64,000 nucleotides of DNA, from assembly GCA_001785865.1 (NCBI GenBank), contig MFUZ01000009.1, positions 15,309 to 79,308 of the forward strand, given 5' to 3'. Positions 53,813-59,150 of the stretch are shown piece by piece. Position 1 is the stretch's first letter, and every line of letters starts with the position of its first letter. A program made the translations under genes and the position numbers. The notes under the pieces were generated by a model, which did no database searches, had not been told where the DNA came from, and saw only the letters and a program-made list of their open reading frames with translations. This stretch comes from Candidatus Nomurabacteria bacterium RIFCSPLOWO2_01_FULL_41_18 (GTDB taxonomy: Bacteria > Patescibacteriota > Minisyncoccia > Phycocordibacterales > UBA9973).

Positions 53813-56410
53813 TTACTCTTCAATTTTGAATACTAGAGTAGCTTCGCCGGTGTTATAAACACTATCGTGAGCGATTACTTTGAGTTCATTCTCTTTTTGC
53901 AAGTCTTCTATATCTCTCGGAATAAAAGAAAAACCGGTGGCGGAATCTGAAGTCCCTAAGTATGTGTTGTTTACGAAAACATCCATCCTAATAATCGGAT
54001 ACTTCGTAGAAGTACCCACTTTTACATTTATTGTTCGGTTGGGCTGGTAGGTGGTTTTACTATTAGGCTCAATGATGGTAATGATGGTCTTTAGCTCACC
54101 AGTGTGTATATCATCTTCCATCCTTGGTTTATCAGAAGCAGTCGTGATTTGGAATCGTCCTTTGTTTTGAGCCCACCAGTTTTGGATTGGAATTTCCCAG
54201 TGTTCAAATTGTGGATTACTACTCGGGTTTTCTGGTGGAGCTCCTAAAATATCGTTTCTATCCACCCAGTAAAGGATGGAGTGGACATTGGTTATCACTT
54301 TTTCCTCCAAAGTTTCTTTCGGGGTGTATTCCGTAGCTAGTTTTCCAGAAATTCTATCTATGAAAAAACTTTCGTTTCCCATCCAGCTTCCCCGGAGCGC
54401 CGGCTTTACTATTTCTGGATCAACATCGAGATTTGGTTCTTCAAACCTTTCGTCTGGCAAATTTTCGAGAGCGGTGCTTATAAATTTATTCCAAATCGGT
54501 CCGGCGACAGCCACACCTCCTTTTTTCATTGGCTCGTTGTCGTTGTTGCCCGCCCAAACTCCGACAACGATAGAAGGCGTGTAACCGATGGTCCACGCAT
54601 CTTTGTTACTGTTGGTGGTTCCGGTCTTTACGGCGACCTCGTGCCCAGGGATAAGAAGAGCAGAGCGCGCCCCGAAGGTCGGGATGCGAGATTTTTCGTC
54701 TGACATTATGTCGGAAATGGTCAAGGCAGTGTTCTTGGGAATAACTTGTTGGGTATTGGGCTTGAACTCTTCTAATATATCCCCGTTCAAGTTTTCAATT
54801 CTTAAAATTCCAGTATAAGGGTTTCTCATTCCATCGTTCGCAAAAACTCCGTAAGCGGAAGTCATGTCGAGGAGAGAAACTTCTCCGCCTCCGATGACCA
54901 GTGTAAGTCCATAACGTCCGATATCGCCCAAAGTGCTGATACCCATGTCTTCGGCTGTCTTGAGTGACGAGGGCAGACCGGCCAAATAGAAAAGCTTTAC
55001 TGCTATCACGTTGATCGATTGCGCGAGCGCGTCACGGAGAGTCATCGGCCCGCGGGATTTTCCATCGTAATTGTCCGGCATATAGCAATCCTTCTGATTG
55101 CGTCCTGGAAGGGCCCTGCCGTAGGCGTTGCAAGTGGTTTGAAATTCGGTAGGCAGGTCAAAGAGCACTGTGCTCGGAGTAAAGCCCTTGTTGAAGGCTG
55201 TGGCGTAAATGAAGGGCTTAAAAGATGAACCTGGCTGCCTGGCCGCGGTAGCCACGTTGAAATTTCCATCTATTTCTTTATCGAAATAGTCTCGAGAACC
55301 AATCATGGTGAGGATCTGCCCGGTTTTCGGGTCGATTGCAACCAATGAAGCATTTCCTCCGTTCCAATCTTTCTCATTTTTAAGAGCACCCTCCTTCACG
55401 ATCAGTTCCCCCTTTTCTTGCAACTCATAATCGAGCGTGGTGATGATCTTCAATCCACCCCTTTCCACCATCTCTCTCCCATATTTTTCTTCTAGATAGT
55501 TCTTTATAAAGAAAACAAAGTGGGACGCCTTGATCCCGCTCGCAGACTGCGGAGAAAAAGCCACAACCTCCTTTTTTGCACTGTCGTATTCCGCCTTGGT
55601 TATAAAGCCAAGCTCCAGCATGCGTGAGAGCACCAGATTTTTCCTGGCTTCCAATTTTTCCTTATTTTTTCCGTAAGGAGACAAGACGGTCGGAGATTGC
55701 GGGATAGCCGCGAGATAAGCGGCTTCAGCTAGTGTGATGTCGAGGGCCCTTTTATTGAAATAAGTTTTGCTGGCTTCTTCTACCCCATAGATGGTTCCTC
55801 CATAAGGGGCTTCGTTCAGATAGTGCTCCAGAATTTTTTCTTTCGGCATGGTGTTTTCTAATTTTATGGCTAGGACCCATTCCTTTATTTTGCGAGATAT
55901 GGTCACCTTTTGGGTAAGTAAGGTGTTTTTTATCAATTGCTGGGTGATGGTGGATCCGCCGGTAACTCTTTTGCCGGTCAGTTTGGCCCATATCGTAGCC
56001 CGGATGATCGAAGTGATCCTGATTCCGCCATGATTGTAAAATTCTGAGTCTTCGATGGCCACTGTCGCGTTCATGATGTTCACTCCCATATCTTCGTAAG
56101 GAATATCCGTTCGCTTTGTTTCGCGATGCATATCATAGAGGAGTATTTCCCCGGTCCGGTCATATATTTTTACCGAGTTTTCGATCCTTCTTTCGTTAAA
56201 GGAATTGAAATCCGGTATTTTTAAGGAAGAAAGCCAGATGGTGACCACACTTACCATGACAATAAAGACGCCAGCGGTAAAAAGCATCAGATTCTTCAAA
56301 AATCCTTTTTTCCTATAAAATCTCATAACTACAGCGAAAATAGTGGCCTCAAATTTGTCGAGATTCTTTGCCATCTTGCTGTTTCTTATTTTTTTGTATA
56401 TTTCTTTCAT
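53813..56410 (-). CDS. mrcA: Class A penicillin-binding protein (bifunctional glycosyltransferase/transpeptidase) with a C-terminal extension
   Basis: GT51 motifs EDSEFYNHGGI, GGSTITQQL; TPase motifs SSFKP, SIN, KTGT; N-terminal TM. Confidence 0.9.
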   Translation of the reverse strand: MKEIYKKIRNSKMAKNLDKFEATIFAVVMRFYRKKGFLKNLMLFTAGVFIVMVSVVTIWLSSLKIPDFNSFNERRIENSVKIYDRTGEILLYDMHRETKRTDIPYEDMGVNIMNATVAIEDSEFYNHGGIRITSIIRATIWAKLTGKRVTGGSTITQQLIKNTLLTQKVTISRKIKEWVLAIKLENTMPKEKILEHYLNEAPYGGTIYGVEEASKTYFNKRALDITLAEAAYLAAIPQSPTVLSPYGKNKEKLEARKNLVLSRMLELGFITKAEYDSAKKEVVAFSPQSASGIKASHFVFFIKNYLEEKYGREMVERGGLKIITTLDYELQEKGELIVKEGALKNEKDWNGGNASLVAIDPKTGQILTMIGSRDYFDKEIDGNFNVATAARQPGSSFKPFIYATAFNKGFTPSTVLFDLPTEFQTTCNAYGRALPGRNQKDCYMPDNYDGKSRGPMTLRDALAQSINVIAVKLFYLAGLPSSLKTAEDMGISTLGDIGRYGLTLVIGGGEVSLLDMTSAYGVFANDGMRNPYTGILRIENLNGDILEEFKPNTQQVIPKNTALTISDIMSDEKSRIPTFGARSALLIPGHEVAVKTGTTNSNKDAWTIGYTPSIVVGVWAGNNDNEPMKKGGVAVAGPIWNKFISTALENLPDERFEEPNLDVDPEIVKPALRGSWMGNESFFIDRISGKLATEYTPKETLEEKVITNVHSILYWVDRNDILGAPPENPSSNPQFEHWEIPIQNWWAQNKGRFQITTASDKPRMEDDIHTGELKTIITIIEPNSKTTYQPNRTINVKVGTSTKYPIIRMDVFVNNTYLGTSDSATGFSFIPRDIEDLQKENELKVIAHDSVYNTGEATLVFKIEE

Positions 56411-56584
56411 TGTTCGAATTATACAACTTGATACAATATAATTACGTCTTTCGTTCGCAATAATCTAAGTACACTTAATTATTGCTCACTCATTAGTAAT
56501 TATAGCAGAGAAATCACTAAAATTATATTTTTCTGCTGTATTTTTAGTCCAAATCCTGAAGTTATTCAGGGGTATTGAGATATT

Positions 56585-56620
56585 ATGAGGGTATTGATTT
56601 TTTTCTACTTTTGTGGTTAG
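56585..56620 (+). CDS. Putative Phe/Tyr-rich leader peptide MRVLIFFYFCG (pheL-like)
   Basis: 11-codon ORF with TTT TTC TAC TTT; stop 15 nt before the antiterminator segment and 35 nt before a strong terminator; 96 nt upstream of the prephenate dehydratase gene. Confidence 0.45.
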   Translation: MRVLIFFYFCG

Positions 56621-56634
56621 GTTAGGTAAATAAA

Positions 56635-56680
56635 CCCTGGAGTAACGGAATGTCCGAGCTCCGCTGGAGCTCGTTCTTTT
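56635..56680 (+). promoter_or_regulatory. Attenuator: antiterminator segment (ccctggag) plus intrinsic terminator cgagctcc-gct-ggagctcg + TTCTTTT in the pheA-like leader
   Basis: 8-bp GC-rich stem 56655-56673 followed by a T-run; alternative pairing 56639-56648 with 56654-56662 uses the terminator 5' arm. Confidence 0.5.
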
Positions 56681-56716
56681 ACAACAGGAAAACAAAGTTT
56701 CAGGAGTTTAACAACC

Positions 56717-57616
56717 ATGAAAATCACGTTACTAGGTCCTCTCGGGGCCAATTTCTCGGATTTGGCTCGTAAGGATTTCGGTAGAATATTCGATGATCAC
56801 TTCCTTCAGACTAACGATCGATCCAGTTTTTTGTTGGTCGATCGAAATGAGGATGTTTTGCCAAGCGTCATCAAAGATGGTGGGTTGGGGGTGGTGGCGA
56901 TGAATACGGAAGCTGAAGGAGTGTACGAGGCACCTTTCAGAAAAGTGGTGGCCCTACTCGACCATTATGACAATTCCGGACGGTGTCCAGTTGCACTTAT
57001 CGCTGCTCTTGAAAAGAGAGTTCGCTTCACTCTCATGGTAAAAAAGGGGACAGAATTTCAAGAGATCCAGGAAGTATGTGCGCATCCAAAATCTCTCGGG
57101 GCGTGCAGAAATAATATCCGGGCACATGGCTGGCGACCTATCGAATGCAACAGTAACGGCAAAGCCGCGGAATATGTTGCTCGTGATCCGAGATATACCA
57201 AGACTGCAGTTCTTGGTCCACGCGAAGCCGTGGAAACTTTCAAAGAGTTGAGAGTTGTACCCGGATATGAGGCTTTGGAAGACAATCCCGCGACGACAAT
57301 TTTCCATTTGTGGGGGCCGAGGTCGAGAAAGCGCATTGCAGGGCTTCGGGAAAACAACATGATTGTTTTAGCTTGCAGGCTTTTCCACAAACCCAACGCA
57401 AAGGGAAGTGTTATGAACAGTTTTGGCAAAAGGGGGATTAACATGCTTTATGACACCCAGGTTTTCGTCGGTGCGGCCAAATATGACCACATCTTTCTTT
57501 ACGAATGTCGGAAGGATCAAGTTATTGCGCAACGGGAAGCCTTACAGGAAGTTAGCAAAAATTCTCTTGTGGAGCGTTGCCTTATGCTGGGTCCTGTCCC
57601 TATTGTTAAAGCCTAA
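56717..57616 (+). CDS. pheA: Prephenate dehydratase (PDT domain + C-terminal ACT-like regulatory domain)
   Basis: ITLLGPLGANFS, VCAHPKSLGACRNNI (compare SHPQALAQC), NPATTIFHLWG (compare N.TRF.VL), C-terminal ACT-like GSVMNSFGKRGINMLYDTQVF. Confidence 0.65.
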   Translation: MKITLLGPLGANFSDLARKDFGRIFDDHFLQTNDRSSFLLVDRNEDVLPSVIKDGGLGVVAMNTEAEGVYEAPFRKVVALLDHYDNSGRCPVALIAALEKRVRFTLMVKKGTEFQEIQEVCAHPKSLGACRNNIRAHGWRPIECNSNGKAAEYVARDPRYTKTAVLGPREAVETFKELRVVPGYEALEDNPATTIFHLWGPRSRKRIAGLRENNMIVLACRLFHKPNAKGSVMNSFGKRGINMLYDTQVFVGAAKYDHIFLYECRKDQVIAQREALQEVSKNSLVERCLMLGPVPIVKA

Positions 57617-57678
57617 CCGCTCGTCAACCGAGTAACAGGCGAAATTCCTAATCAATTAAAATAGATAGTACCAAGAGG

Positions 57679-57712
57679 GCCAGCACAACACGTTGCTGGC
57701 TTTTCCCTTTTT
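57679..57712 (+). terminator. Rho-independent terminator after the pheA-like gene
   Basis: gccagca-caacacgt-tgctggc followed by ttttcccttttt. Confidence 0.75.
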
Positions 57713-57757
57713 ATATATTAAAACTTTGTAAGTTTTAATTGGTATCTTGAATATCAT

Positions 57758-57785
57758 TTGACAAAATTACACTATTTGATATCAT
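57758..57785 (+). promoter_or_regulatory. Sigma70-like promoter (TTGACA - 16 nt - TATCAT) for the tyrS leader
   Basis: Read in sequence; predicted transcription start about 57792, at the leader ORF AUG. Confidence 0.5.
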
Positions 57786-57791
57786 ACAAGT

Positions 57792-57860
57792 ATGAGTCTT
57801 TTAATCAAATTTTCTGTTAACTATTATTACCGCCAAACGGGACGGTCTTCTTTTTGCTAA
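57792..57860 (+). CDS. Putative tyrS leader peptide MSLLIKFSVNYYYRQTGRSSFC with three consecutive Tyr codons
   Basis: 22-codon ORF with TAT TAT TAC at 57822-57830, directly overlapping attenuator segment 1 (accgcc). Confidence 0.5.
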   Translation: MSLLIKFSVNYYYRQTGRSSFC

Positions 57861-57916
57861 TTAATTTAACTTTTAAAGCACAAAAGACCGCCCCGCAAGG
57901 CGGTTTTTTGTTTTTA
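57829..57916 (+). promoter_or_regulatory. Transcription attenuator with four alternative pairing segments upstream of tyrS
   Basis: Segment 1 accgcc (57829-57834), segment 2 gacggtctt (57841-57849), segment 3 aagaccgcc (57884-57892), segment 4 ggcggt (57899-57904). Pairing 3:4 is a terminator followed by a T-run; 2:3 is an antiterminator (8 of 9 bp); 1:2 is an anti-antiterminator. Confidence 0.6.
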
Positions 57917-57967
57917 TGTTATGAAAATGAATTTTATAAATTTATCACAATATGCTAGAATCGGGAT

Positions 57968-59150
57968 TATGAAAGTTATTACCGATGAGAAGAAAATAGA
58001 CGAGCTTTTAACTCGAGGGGTGGAGAACGTCTACCCCAACAAGGAAGCTCTCAAGAAGGTTTTGATGTCCGGGCGAAAAATCAAACTCTATCTTGGGATT
58101 GACCCGACAGGTGGAATTTTACATCTTGGACACTTGGTTCAATTTCTCAAATTAAAAAAATTCCAAGACCTTGGTCATGAAGTTGTTATTCTTATTGGTG
58201 ATTTTACAGCGCAAATAGGAGATCCCACCGACAAACAAACAACCCGAAAACCGCTTACTCATAAGCAGGTCGTAGAGAATGCCAAGGGATACAAAAAGCA
58301 GATTAGTAAAATTTTGGATTTAAAGAAATTAAATATGAACTTTGTTCATAATGCCAAGTGGACTAACAAGCTTTCTCCAGAAGACATGTTGGAATTAGCC
58401 TCCAACTTTACAGTTTCCAACCTGCTTAGTCGAAGTATGTTTCAAGAAAGACTTAACACCGGTCGGGAAGTGCATGTTCATGAATTTCTATACCCAATTT
58501 TTCAAGCATATGATGCTGTGACTATGGATGTTGATCTGCAGATCGGGGGCAATGACCAAATGTTCAACATGCTAGCTGGTCGTGACTTGATGAGAAGAAA
58601 AAAACATAAAGAAATGTTTGTCCTGACTACTAAATTACTTGTTGACCCAACCGGCAAAAAAATGGGAAAAACTGAAGGGAATATGATTACCTTGAATGAT
58701 TCTGCCAACAACATTTTTGGTAAGATAATGAGCTGGCCTGACAGCATGATCGCTTCAGGTTTTGAAATATTTACTGGATGGGATTTGAACACTCTTCAAA
58801 TAGACAGCCCGCGTGATCAGAAAATGAAACTTGCCCACGAGGTCGTAAAAATTTGTCAGGGAGAACAAGCCGCAAGGGAAGCAGAAGAGAATTTTATTAA
58901 CACCTTCCAGAAAAAGGAGATTCCAGTAGAGATGGAAGAAATCAAGGGCCAAGAAGGTGAATTGGTGAGCGAAGTTTTGGTAAAAAATAAGATTTTATCT
59001 TCAAAAGGAGAGTGGCGCAGGTTATGCGAGGGGAATGGGGTGCATGACTTGGAGAAAAATGAAACAATTGCTGATCAAAATCTTAAAATTGACGGAAACC
59101 TGACACTCAAAATAGGGAAAAAGAGATTTATAAAAATCACAGCAAAATAA
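57968..59150 (+). CDS. tyrS: Tyrosine--tRNA ligase
   Basis: HIGH-class motif GIDPTGGILHLGHL, KMGKT (KMSKS), C-terminal S4-like domain; start taken at MKVITDEKK because the ORF-track ATG at 57921 abuts the attenuator T-run with no RBS. Confidence 0.9.

What the first reader, a model, noticed from the sequence alone, without database searches (positions are those of the whole stretch)
56560..56716. Phe/Tyr-rich mini-ORF and terminator immediately upstream of the prephenate dehydratase gene (pheA/pheL-like attenuator)
An 11-codon ORF (ATG at 56585), MRVLIFFYFCG, contains TTT TTC TAC TTT. It stops 15 nt before a segment (ccctggag / ggagt..cgg) that can pair with the 5' arm of a strong intrinsic terminator (cgagctcc-gct-ggagctcg + TTCTTTT, 56655-56680). 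That terminator ends 36 nt before the start of a PDT+ACT prephenate dehydratase gene. The arrangement mirrors E. coli pheL-pheA, whose leader is Phe-rich and is followed by a terminator or antiterminator alternative. Taken together with the tyrS leader 1 kb downstream, this suggests that this organism uses ribosome-mediated attenuation for aromatic amino-acid genes.
Basis: partly seen in the sequence, partly recalled or inferred. Interest (0 to 1): 0.7.

Follow-up and report, generated by a model that had tools for sequence, protein, structure and literature searches.

The report
Phenylalanine leader-peptide attenuator in CPR bacterium
A tiny phenylalanine-rich reading frame and a transcription stop signal precede a phenylalanine-synthesis gene in an ultra-small "candidate phyla radiation" bacterium; about twenty related genomes show the same arrangement, so it is most likely a classic ribosome-sensing switch, in a bacterial group where I found none described.

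Summary
ATG 56585 to TAG 56620 encodes MRVLIFFYFCG. An 8-bp terminator (56655-56673) with TTCTTTT follows, 36 nt before a 299-aa gene. Pfam and a confident structure model show that gene is a divergent prephenate dehydratase with an ACT domain.

On its own the window copy is not statistically remarkable. The support is comparative.
- The organism is a Candidatus Nomurabacteria bacterium (CPR/Patescibacteria).
- 22 of 27 loci encoding this PDT subfamily, all CPR where a record title names the source, carry a Phe-rich leader ORF (typically about 20 codons) followed by a terminator.
- The main family of 18 keeps the reading frame (17 of 18 loci) and mixes TTT and TTC codons.
- The 3' end of its ORF is complementary to the terminator's 5' arm and loop, and the two co-vary.
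- Predicted promoters place most start codons at the transcription start, so these ORFs look leaderless.

The window copy and its one close relative (L008) form a shortened, atypical variant. No leaderless promoter is visible, the start codon is uncertain, and the antiterminator lies beyond the stop codon. Its dependence on ribosome position is therefore plausible but not shown.

The PDT block, together with a textbook Tyr (YYY) attenuator, is a 1.5-kb insertion absent from four relatives.

Verdict: a real, new member of a known kind.

The parts
56410..56437 (+). Candidate promoter of the long leader: TTGTTC, 16 nt, extended -10 TGaTACAAT. Predicted start is near 56444. Uncertain.
   Evidence: Regex scan. 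It is the only -35/-10 pair between the PBP gene and the mini-ORF; the only other pair in the scanned stretch (TTGATT 56594 / TAGGTT) lies inside the leader. The consensus scan did not list it.
56501..56547 (+). 14-bp hairpin (UAUAGCAGAGAAAU / AUUUUUCUGCUGUA) followed by TTTTTAG, upstream of the mini-ORF. Its left arm is ancestral spacer sequence. Role unknown.
   Evidence: -13.4 kcal/mol. Compared with L045/L046.
56585..56620 (+). Leader mini-ORF MRVLIFFYFCG. An in-frame alternative start, TTG 56594, would give MIFFYFCG.
   Evidence: L008 keeps the frame (M-I-F-x-x-F-x-G from TTG). L044 also starts ATG AGG.
56600..56611 (+). Regulatory codons TTT TTC TAC TTT (Phe Phe Tyr Phe).
   Evidence: Phe clusters are present in 22 of 27 family loci.
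56595..56618 (+). Proposed region 1: Phe-codon stretch that can pair with region 2.
   Evidence: RNAduplex -9.9 kcal/mol, p about 0.2 against shuffles. An equivalent -9.7 duplex in L008 appears in that locus's MFE fold.
56634..56655 (+). Region 2. It contains the 5' strand of the antiterminator (GGAGUAACGGA, 56639-49).
56639..56662 (+). Antiterminator hairpin (2:3): GGAGU..CGGA-AUG-UCCG.GCUCC. It overlaps the terminator's 5' arm.
   Evidence: -11.5 kcal/mol. Present in L008 at -9.1.
56655..56680 (+). Intrinsic terminator (3:4): 8-bp stem, GCU loop, TTCTTTT tail.
   Evidence: -12.7 kcal/mol. Retained in L008 with a C-to-U change that gives a G-U pair plus a bulge.
56674..56695 (+). Conserved post-terminator motif TTCTTTTACAACAGGAAAACAA, related to GTTCnTTGACAAC in other family loci.
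56702..56706 (+). Shine-Dalgarno AGGAG of the PDT gene.
56717..57616 (+). Divergent prephenate dehydratase + ACT (299 aa). This is the regulated gene.
57675..57704 (+). Terminator of the PDT gene.
57758..57911 (+). Second attenuator in the same inserted block. Promoter TTGACA-16-TATCAT, then a probably leaderless ORF 57792-57860 (MSLLIKFSVNYYYRQTGRSSFC). Antiterminator 57837-50 pairs with 57883-96. Terminator 57880-57911.

Best explanation
The element is a ribosome-mediated (leader-peptide) transcription attenuator. It makes expression of a prephenate-dehydratase-like gene depend on the supply of charged tRNA-Phe.

Proposed mechanism (inferred).
1. Transcription starts upstream and the short ORF is translated.
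2. When Phe-tRNA is scarce, the ribosome stalls on TTT TTC TAC TTT (56600-11) and covers region 1.
3. Region 2 (56639-49) is then free to form the antiterminator hairpin with 56653-62, and RNA polymerase reads into the gene.
4. When Phe-tRNA is plentiful, the ribosome finishes and leaves. Region 1 pairs with region 2, the terminator 56655-73 plus its U-tract forms, and transcription stops 36 nt before the gene.

Shown:
- the sequence parts;
- the three alternative pairings and their energies;
- conservation of the design across the gene family.

Inferred:
- that the ORF is translated;
- which start codon is used;
- that ribosome position decides the outcome in this particular copy.

The copy in the window is a shortened variant of a family-wide design. 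In that design a predicted leaderless ORF, typically about 20 codons, ends inside the antiterminator strand.
For: Family evidence.
- 24 genome loci plus metagenome contigs encode the same PDT subfamily. All whose record titles name a source are CPR/Paceibacterota MAGs.
- 22 of 27 have a Phe-rich mini-ORF followed by a terminator at about -80 to -45. Examples: VIHTNSFFGFFFKNSEIRRVN, MTAFNPFFGFFFFTSANRRVS, MRIYQKNNFFFFSPQHLRVGFSD.
- At least 4 Phe in 8 codons occurs in 11 of 27 PDT upstream regions against 7 of 246 control pieces.
- The distance from start codon to the CCGRRR motif is 47, 50 or 53 nt (same frame) in 17 of 18 loci. Phe codons are 39 TTT and 31 TTC.
- The ORF's 3' end (-12 to +5 around the stop) pairs with the terminator's 5' arm and loop. 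This beats shuffles (p < 0.05) in 13 of 18 loci.
- Cognate pairs are more stable than non-cognate pairs: -13.7 against -11.4 kcal/mol, 0 of 20,000 permutations as good.
- With ribosome footprints masked, the 5' arm is sequestered more when the ribosome is stalled at Phe than when it is at the stop, in 20 of 20 loci outside the window/L008 pair.

Window-specific evidence.
- The L008 leader is 73% identical across alignment columns, and 104 of the window's 123 leader bases match. The coding region is 60% identical and the flanks 52-55%.
- Frame, antiterminator and terminator are retained in L008.
- The 1:2 pairing appears in L008's MFE fold.
- Energies are 1:2 -9.9, 2:3 -11.5 and 3:4 -12.7 kcal/mol.
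- The upstream gene is divergent, so the hairpin cannot be its terminator.
- The same inserted block carries a clear YYY attenuator: antiterminator -19.0 against -5.8 +/- 2.2 for shuffles.
Against: - The window ORF alone is unremarkable: 3 Phe in 8 codons occurs in 17% of controls.
- ATG 56585 has no good SD and no leaderless-type promoter. TTG 56594 has an SD-like GAGGG only 2 nt away. L008 has no ATG at the aligned position.
- The antiterminator's 5' strand lies 19-30 nt past the stop, so a terminating ribosome would not cover it.
- In masked equilibrium folding, the 5' arm is equally sequestered (0.87) with no ribosome, a stalled ribosome or a ribosome at the stop.
- The 1:2 and 2:3 duplexes are not better than shuffles.
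- The window ORF ends three codons earlier than L008's (TAG where L008 has TGT), so this copy could be decaying.
- There are no transcript data.
Confidence: 0.68

Rival explanations
1. It is a decayed or rewired remnant of the family's attenuator. The terminator still damps transcription, or the antiterminator always wins. Either way the short ORF no longer senses Phe, so expression is effectively constitutive or leaky.
For: - The ORF is truncated relative to L008 and to the roughly 20-codon family norm.
- It lacks the leaderless promoter seen in 20 of 25 other leader ORFs.
- The antiterminator forms regardless of the modelled ribosome position.
- The block is a recent insertion.
Against: - The leader is better conserved than the coding region between the window and L008.
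- The frame M-I-F-x-x-F-x-G, the antiterminator and the terminator are all kept in L008. This argues for continued selection on the whole leader.
Confidence: 0.17
2. It is a terminator/antiterminator switch operated by something other than a translating ribosome, such as an RNA-binding protein, uncharged tRNA or a small ligand. In this reading the U-rich stretch is an RNA element, not a set of codons.
For: - Nucleotide-level conservation in the window/L008 pair extends outside the ORF.
- The start codon is not conserved between them.
- L019 keeps the peptide frame but has no canonical start codon.
- A motif conserved after the terminator has no explanation.
Against: - No T-box or any other Rfam family matches, even at E <= 10.
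- Across the family the frame is kept through 3-nt indels, Phe codons vary synonymously, and start codons sit at predicted transcription starts. This pattern is expected for translation, not for a ligand pocket.
Confidence: 0.09
3. The association is chance. A T-rich intergenic stretch happens to contain a short ORF, and the hairpin merely insulates the inserted block from upstream transcription.
For: The single-sequence statistics are weak.
Against: - The same ORF, antiterminator and terminator order is kept in L008 at 42-43% protein identity.
- A Phe-ORF plus terminator design is present in 22 of 27 loci of the gene family.
Confidence: 0.05

Closest known systems
E. coli pheL-pheA attenuator (Rfam RF01859 Phe_leader) and the trp/his/leu/thr leader-peptide attenuators
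   Same: - A short ORF rich in the cognate amino acid's codons precedes an intrinsic terminator.
- A competing antiterminator overlaps the terminator's 5' arm.
- The regulated gene encodes prephenate dehydratase.
   Different: - No sequence or structure homology. RF01859 does not hit 56560-56716 even at E <= 10.
- The host is a CPR bacterium.
- The enzyme lacks the chorismate mutase domain.
- In the wider CPR family the ORF is predicted to be leaderless, and its last codons and stop codon lie inside the antiterminator strand. That strand pairs with the terminator loop as well as the arm.
Corynebacterium glutamicum attenuators (ilvBNC, trp, leuA, and aroF with its Phe-Tyr-Phe leader)
   Same: - Leader peptides with cognate codons. 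The aroF leader has F-Y-F, close to the F-F-Y-F here.
- The ilvBNC leader peptide is made without a ribosome-binding site (PMC4046766, citing Morbach et al. 2000).
   Different: - Different phylum and different target gene.
- The leaderless state of the CPR ORFs is predicted from promoter spacing only.
- The window copy itself lacks that promoter.
Mycobacterial leaderless polycysteine uORF attenuators
   Same: Leaderless short ORFs rich in one amino acid that control downstream biosynthetic genes.
   Different: I do not recall an intrinsic terminator/antiterminator pair being central in those systems. Here a canonical terminator is central.
T-box leaders of Firmicutes (the usual control of aromatic amino-acid and tyrS genes in Gram-positive bacteria)
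   Same: A terminator/antiterminator choice in the 5' leader of amino-acid genes and tRNA-synthetase genes.
   Different: - No T-box match.
- No specifier or T-box sequence was found.
- Coding signatures are present instead.

Membership tests
Leader-peptide (ribosome-mediated) transcription attenuator | Short ORF in the 5' leader with clustered codons for the end-product amino acid | tested here: met
   TTT TTC TAC TTT at 56600-11 within an 11-codon ORF. Alone this is not statistically unusual.
Leader-peptide (ribosome-mediated) transcription attenuator | Intrinsic terminator between the ORF and the structural gene, on the gene's strand | tested here: met
   56655-73 plus TTCTTTT, -12.7 kcal/mol. 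The upstream gene is divergent.
Leader-peptide (ribosome-mediated) transcription attenuator | Antiterminator structure mutually exclusive with the terminator | tested here: met
   The hairpin 56639-62 (-11.5 kcal/mol) shares 56655-62 with the terminator. It is not better than shuffles in the duplex test.
Leader-peptide (ribosome-mediated) transcription attenuator | Ribosome position (stalled or not) decides which structure forms, with region 1 overlapping the regulatory codons | tested here: inconclusive
   The 1:2 duplex 56595-618 / 56634-55 is -9.9 kcal/mol with p about 0.2. The masked-footprint model shows no difference in the window (0.87 in all three states) but a clear difference in 20 of 20 loci outside the window/L008 pair.
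Leader-peptide (ribosome-mediated) transcription attenuator | The ORF is translated (start codon with an SD, or a leaderless start) | tested here: inconclusive
   ATG 56585 has neither an SD nor a leaderless promoter. TTG 56594 has GAGGG 2 nt upstream. 20 of 25 leader ORFs tested (including the window's Tyr leader and L008's second Phe leader) fit a leaderless promoter pattern, against a 0.9% background.
Leader-peptide (ribosome-mediated) transcription attenuator | Conservation of ORF plus terminator upstream of orthologues, with coding-type variation | tested here: met
   22 of 27 loci. Frame kept in 17 of 18 and mixed TTT/TTC codons. Antiterminator co-variation.
Leader-peptide (ribosome-mediated) transcription attenuator | A short terminated leader transcript and amino-acid-dependent read-through | not testable with these tools
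   No transcript data or experiments were available.
Rfam Phe_leader (RF01859, enterobacterial pheL) | Match to the covariance model at or above its gathering score (55 bits) | tested here: not met
   No hit on 56560-56716 at E <= 10. The only hits are 21 bits, on the Tyr leader.
T-box leader (RF00230) | Match to the covariance model, including specifier loop and T-box sequence | tested here: not met
   No hit in the window at gathering score or at E <= 10 in 56300-58100, nor in 8 related loci.
Prephenate dehydratase (PF00800) with C-terminal ACT domain | PDT domain match and the PDT+ACT fold | tested here: met
   Pfam 55.8 bits against a 25.2 cut-off. Model pLDDT 92.8. The best PDB matches are full-length PDTs 6vh5, 2qmx, 3mwb and 2qmw. 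NCBIfam equivalog cut-offs are not reached.
Prephenate dehydratase (PF00800) with C-terminal ACT domain | Catalytic Thr of the TRF motif, and the ESRP Phe-binding motif of the ACT domain | tested here: inconclusive
   The Thr and Phe of TRF are invariant (T194, F196), but Arg is replaced: TTF in the family, TIF in the window. ESRP is absent. The substrate (prephenate or arogenate) is unknown. The fold also matches the GqqA acylase 7am0.

The most novel reading that the evidence does not exclude
Paceibacterota (CPR) bacteria carry a previously undescribed family of predicted leaderless leader-peptide attenuators, specific for Phe and at least one for Tyr. These travel with a patchily distributed, horizontally inserted single-gene PDT module. 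If so, these reduced-genome organisms sense tRNA charging directly. They would switch on a one-step salvage or synthesis enzyme for phenylalanine only when Phe-tRNA runs short. The attenuator would then act as a built-in functional label, tying this divergent PDT-like family to phenylalanine supply.
Probability: 0.55. Interest if true: 0.6.

Novelty: new member of a known kind. Interest (0 to 1): 0.5.

Why it matters
CPR/Patescibacteria are usually described as lacking most amino-acid biosynthesis, and almost nothing is known about how they regulate genes.

- A conserved Phe-codon attenuator in front of a divergent PDT-like gene shows that at least some of them tune an aromatic amino-acid step to tRNA charging.
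- It gives independent, regulation-based evidence that this orphan enzyme family serves phenylalanine supply.
- It extends classical attenuation, probably with leaderless leader ORFs, to a very deep bacterial lineage.
- It offers compact natural parts (promoter, 20-codon sensor, terminator) that could be tested in heterologous hosts, since the organisms cannot be cultured.

The mechanism itself is textbook, so the surprise is phylogenetic and contextual rather than mechanistic.

Tried and rejected
1. Seven other contigs carrying the identical protein were aligned. Their leaders are 100% identical, so they gave no information.
2. The search for related loci with a 42-sequence alignment failed because no stretch was conserved enough. 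A narrower alignment worked.
3. The metagenome scan with a P0001+P0002 alignment found no relatives. The DNA-pattern scan with GGAGTAANGGAANNTCCGAGC returned 7 unrelated chance matches. L008/L009 therefore remains the only close relative of the window-type leader.
4. Equilibrium folding of the full leader always favours the terminator and cannot discriminate the states. I replaced it with folding up to the terminator loop.
5. T-box, riboswitch and known-leader explanations were rejected: no Rfam match.
6. A leaderless promoter for the window ORF, at ATG or TTG, was not found.
7. The 5' segment 56561-72 (GUUAUUCAGGGG) is complementary in 11 of 12 positions to 56635-46 and was considered as an anti-antiterminator. 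It was set aside because it lies upstream of the ORF and I saw no counterpart in L008.
8. The post-terminator TTGACAAC motif was considered as a promoter for the PDT gene. By eye on the sequences, the spacing to the ATG is too short, so I rejected it.
9. GC content of the inserted block (0.46-0.49, against 0.39 for tyrS) only weakly suggests foreign origin, because the PBP gene is similar.
10. Literature searches for leader-peptide attenuation or PDT in CPR returned nothing relevant. The library is limited to open-access papers.

Full report
WHAT IS THERE

- ATG 56585 opens an 11-codon ORF, MRVLIFFYFCG, which stops at TAG 56618-20.
- Its four central codons are TTT TTC TAC TTT.
- A hairpin, CGAGCUCC-GCU-GGAGCUCG (56655-73, -12.7 kcal/mol), is followed by UUCUUUU. 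The terminator scan found it independently.
- Thirty-six nucleotides later, after an AGGAG Shine-Dalgarno, a 299-aa ORF starts at 56717.
- The upstream neighbour is a divergently transcribed class A penicillin-binding protein. A plus-strand terminator here therefore cannot end an upstream gene and must belong to the 5' leader.
GGAGU..CGGA (56639-49) pairs with UCCG.GCUCC (56653-62) as a -11.5 kcal/mol hairpin that consumes the terminator's 5' arm.

THE GENE AND THE ORGANISM

- The protein matches Pfam PDT (55.8 bits) but falls far below NCBIfam's equivalog cut-offs.
- It is annotated 'hypothetical protein' in Candidatus Nomurabacteria bacterium RIFCSPHIGHO2_01_FULL_42_15, a CPR/Patescibacteria genome.
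- An exhaustive HMMER search found only 192 relatives at E <= 0.001 among 1.8 billion cluster representatives. Seventy-three of them score at or below 1e-10, mostly proteins of about 290 aa.
- A profile search separates this subfamily (E <= 1e-73) from canonical PDTs (E about 1e-28 and weaker).
- An AlphaFold model built on the subfamily alignment is confident (pLDDT 92.8). Its best PDB matches are full-length PDT+ACT enzymes 6vh5, 2qmx, 3mwb and 2qmw, and also the PDT-like acylase GqqA.
- The Thr and Phe of the catalytic TRF motif are invariant, but the Arg is not. The ESRP motif of the ACT domain is missing.
- So 'PDT+ACT' is right as a fold. Substrate and allostery are open.

SINGLE-SEQUENCE STATISTICS ARE WEAK

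- An ORF with three Phe in eight codons turns up in 17% of 246 control intergenic pieces from these AT-rich genomes.
- The fold z-score of the region is -1.6.
- Neither the antiterminator nor the proposed region 1:2 duplex beats shuffled controls.
- Seven further contigs with the identical protein have identical leaders.

COMPARATIVE EVIDENCE IS STRONG

I collected 27 loci encoding the subfamily: 22 usable of the 24 species-representative genome loci, metagenome contigs for the closest proteins, and the window itself. Every record title that names an organism points to CPR (Paceibacterota, Nomura-, Taylor- and Azambacteria, and MAGs labelled Saccharibacteria).

Twenty-two of the 27 have a Phe-rich mini-ORF. 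It typically lies about 170 to 100 nt before the PDT start, followed by a terminator at about -80 to -45. Examples:
- (V)IHTNSFFGFFFKNSEIRRVN
- MIRANIFFGFFFNETENRRELARV
- MTAFNPFFGFFFFTSANRRVS
- MTRINNTFGFFFTSVSRRAV
- MRIYQKNNFFFFSPQHLRVGFSD

At least four Phe in eight codons occurs in 11 of 27 PDT upstream regions against 7 of 246 controls.

Coding signatures in the main family of 18 loci:
- The distance from the start codon to a conserved CCGRRR motif is 47, 50 or 53 nt in 17 of 18 loci, so indels come in threes.
- Phe codons are a mixture of 39 TTT and 31 TTC.

HOW THE MAIN FAMILY WORKS (INFERRED FROM STRUCTURE)

- The ORF's last codons carry UCGG-nAAn-CCGAAGGG. The CCGAAGGG part is the exact complement of the terminator's apical CCCUUCGG.
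- A second short helix (UAGCG : CGCUA) includes the stop codon.
- By eye, compensatory variants are visible in the sequences: CCGAAGAG with CUCUCCGG, and CCGGAGGG with CACUCCGG.
- The best duplex between the ORF's 3' region and the terminator's 5' arm and loop always maps to about -12 to +5 around the stop. It beats shuffles (p < 0.05) in 13 of 18 loci.
- Cognate pairs are 2.3 kcal/mol better than non-cognate pairs (0 of 20,000 permutations as good).
- I folded each RNA up to the terminator loop with a 28-nt ribosome footprint masked. The 5' arm is more sequestered when the ribosome sits on a Phe codon than when it sits on the stop, in all 20 loci outside the window/L008 pair.
- This is the classical logic. 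A terminating ribosome covers the antiterminator strand. A ribosome stalled about 15 nt upstream leaves it free and covers the small UCGG:CCGA anti-antiterminator.

A FAMILY-SPECIFIC TWIST: LEADERLESS LEADER ORFS

In 20 of 25 leader ORFs tested, a TTGnnn-(16-18)-TAnnnT promoter ends 5-9 nt before the ATG or GTG, against 0.9% of background ATG/GTG positions. The 25 include the window's Tyr leader and a second Phe leader in L008. The leader ORFs are therefore predicted to be leaderless. There is precedent in Corynebacterium glutamicum (PMC4046766, citing Morbach et al. 2000).

THE WINDOW COPY IS AN ATYPICAL VARIANT

Its only close relative is L008/L009, whose PDT protein is 42-43% identical.

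What is conserved:
- The leader is better conserved than the gene. Identity is 73% across alignment columns, and 104 of the window's 123 leader bases match. The coding sequence is 60% identical and the flanks 52-55%.
- From the shared TTG the peptides are MIFFYFCG* and MIFSIFSGCIG*, so the frame is kept.
- The antiterminator and terminator are retained. One arm change gives a G-U pair plus a bulge.
- In L008 the MFE fold pairs the Phe-codon stretch with the antiterminator's 5' strand. The equivalent window duplex is -9.9 kcal/mol.
- A four-region scheme is therefore available: 1 = Phe codons, 2 = 56639-49, 3 = 56653-62, 4 = 56666-73.

What weakens the case:
- There is no leaderless promoter at either candidate start. 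The only promoter-like site upstream of the mini-ORF is TTGTTC-16-TGaTACAAT at 56410-37, which would give a leader of about 273 nt.
- The ATG lacks an SD and is not conserved in L008.
- The antiterminator strand lies 19-30 nt beyond the stop.
- The masked-footprint model gives 0.87 in every state.
- I therefore rate the ribosome-sensing mechanism as likely for this copy, but not demonstrated.

CONTEXT FOUND ON THE WAY

- Four relatives with TyrRS 68-87% identical have dnaN, PBP(-), tyrS(+), ruvC(-) and ruvB(-). They have no PDT gene and only a 26-66 nt PBP-tyrS spacer.
- Homology to the window resumes at 57934. Roughly 56411-57933 is therefore an insertion. It carries the Phe leader, the PDT gene, its terminator and a second attenuator.
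- The second attenuator has promoter TTGACA-16-TATCAT, an ATG 6 nt later, and the ORF MSLLIKFSVNYYYRQTGRSSFC. Its antiterminator is -19.0 kcal/mol, against -5.8 +/- 2.2 for shuffles. Its terminator is at 57880-57911.
- That attenuator lies upstream of the ancestral tyrS promoter. This promoter is TGcTAGAAT, 7 nt before ATG 57969; the relatives have the same arrangement 6 nt before their ATG.
- Read-through from the attenuator could therefore add Tyr-responsive transcription to tyrS, but tyrS is not solely under its control.

COMPARISON WITH KNOWN SYSTEMS AND NOVELTY

- Functionally this is the pheL-pheA / trp type of attenuation.
- It is not a member of Rfam's Phe_leader, T-box or any other Rfam family.
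- Full-text searches found no report of leader-peptide attenuation, or of this PDT family, in CPR/Patescibacteria. The searched library is incomplete.
- I classify it as a new member of a known kind. The family-level features are moderately interesting: the CPR host, predicted leaderless sensors, an antiterminator that pairs with the terminator loop, and a mobile single-gene module.

Noticed in passing
window 57758-57911: A textbook Tyr attenuator. Promoter TTGACA-16-TATCAT is followed 6 nt later by an ATG, so the ORF is probably leaderless. The ORF encodes MSLLIKFSVNYYYRQTGRSSFC. The antiterminator 57837-50 / 57883-96 is -19.0 kcal/mol (shuffles -5.8 +/- 2.2). The terminator is at 57880-57911. 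It gives weak sub-threshold Rfam hits to the Phe, Thr and Leu leader families.
   Followed up: partly
window about 56411-57933, compared with L045-L048: The Phe leader, PDT gene, its terminator and the Tyr attenuator form a block of about 1.5 kb. The block is absent from four relatives (TyrRS 68-87% identical), where PBP and tyrS are 26-66 nt apart. The PDT module appears to be an inserted accessory cassette. PDT GC is 0.46-0.49, against about 0.39 for tyrS.
   Followed up: partly
window 57933-57971; L045 3463-3503; L046 3463-3503: tyrS keeps an ancestral extended -10 promoter (TGcTAGAAT) 7 nt before ATG 57969. In the relatives the -10 ends 6 nt before the ATG, so tyrS itself looks leaderless. 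The Tyr attenuator's terminator lies upstream of this promoter.
   Followed up: partly
window 56501-56547: A 14-bp hairpin with a 12-nt loop, followed by TTTTTAG on the plus strand, lies at the left junction of the insertion. Its left arm is ancestral spacer sequence (AATTATAGCAGA). It overlaps a minus-strand promoter-like site (56551..56522) that faces the PBP gene. Function unknown.
   Followed up: no
window 56417-56504: AATTATA occurs twice (56417-23 and 56498-504), flanking about 74 bp that are absent from the relatives' spacer. This looks like a small insertion with a target-site duplication. It contains the -10 of the only candidate plus-strand promoter upstream of the mini-ORF.
   Followed up: no
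L008 1800-1950: Downstream of the L008 PDT gene there is a second Phe-rich leader: TTGAAC-16-TATTAT-6-GTG, encoding (M)NKYSQQISNSFFFFSFSHKSRELIFAL. The contig ends before the gene it would control. It sits at the position where the window has its Tyr leader.
   Followed up: partly
window 56674-56695; post-terminator regions of L010, L014, L017-L020, L022, L024, L026, L031, L032, L043, L044: A conserved motif, (G)TTCnTTGACAAC / TTTACAAC followed by CA-rich sequence, lies between the terminator and the PDT Shine-Dalgarno in most family loci. By eye it is too close to the ATG to be a promoter. It is possibly a translation-enhancer or protein-binding element.
   Followed up: no
L019 2336-2398: This leader keeps the family peptide frame (QHTSSFFWFIPFASENRRVV*) and the terminator, but it has no ATG, GTG or TTG start after the preceding in-frame stop. 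It may use a non-canonical start, contain an assembly error, or be a decaying copy.
   Followed up: no
L029 3543-4325; L030 1323-2387: In L029 a shikimate dehydrogenase gene follows the PDT gene directly on the same strand. In L030 a class I Trp/Tyr-type tRNA synthetase gene precedes it. In 13 of 20 loci the gene downstream of PDT is on the opposite strand, so PDT is probably a stand-alone transcription unit there.
   Followed up: no
L013, L015, L023, L028, L030 (PDT upstream regions): Five of the 27 family loci have no recognisable Phe leader. In L030 a hairpin plus T-tract sits immediately after a promoter-like site, with only a 5-codon ORF (MGFSF).
   Followed up: no
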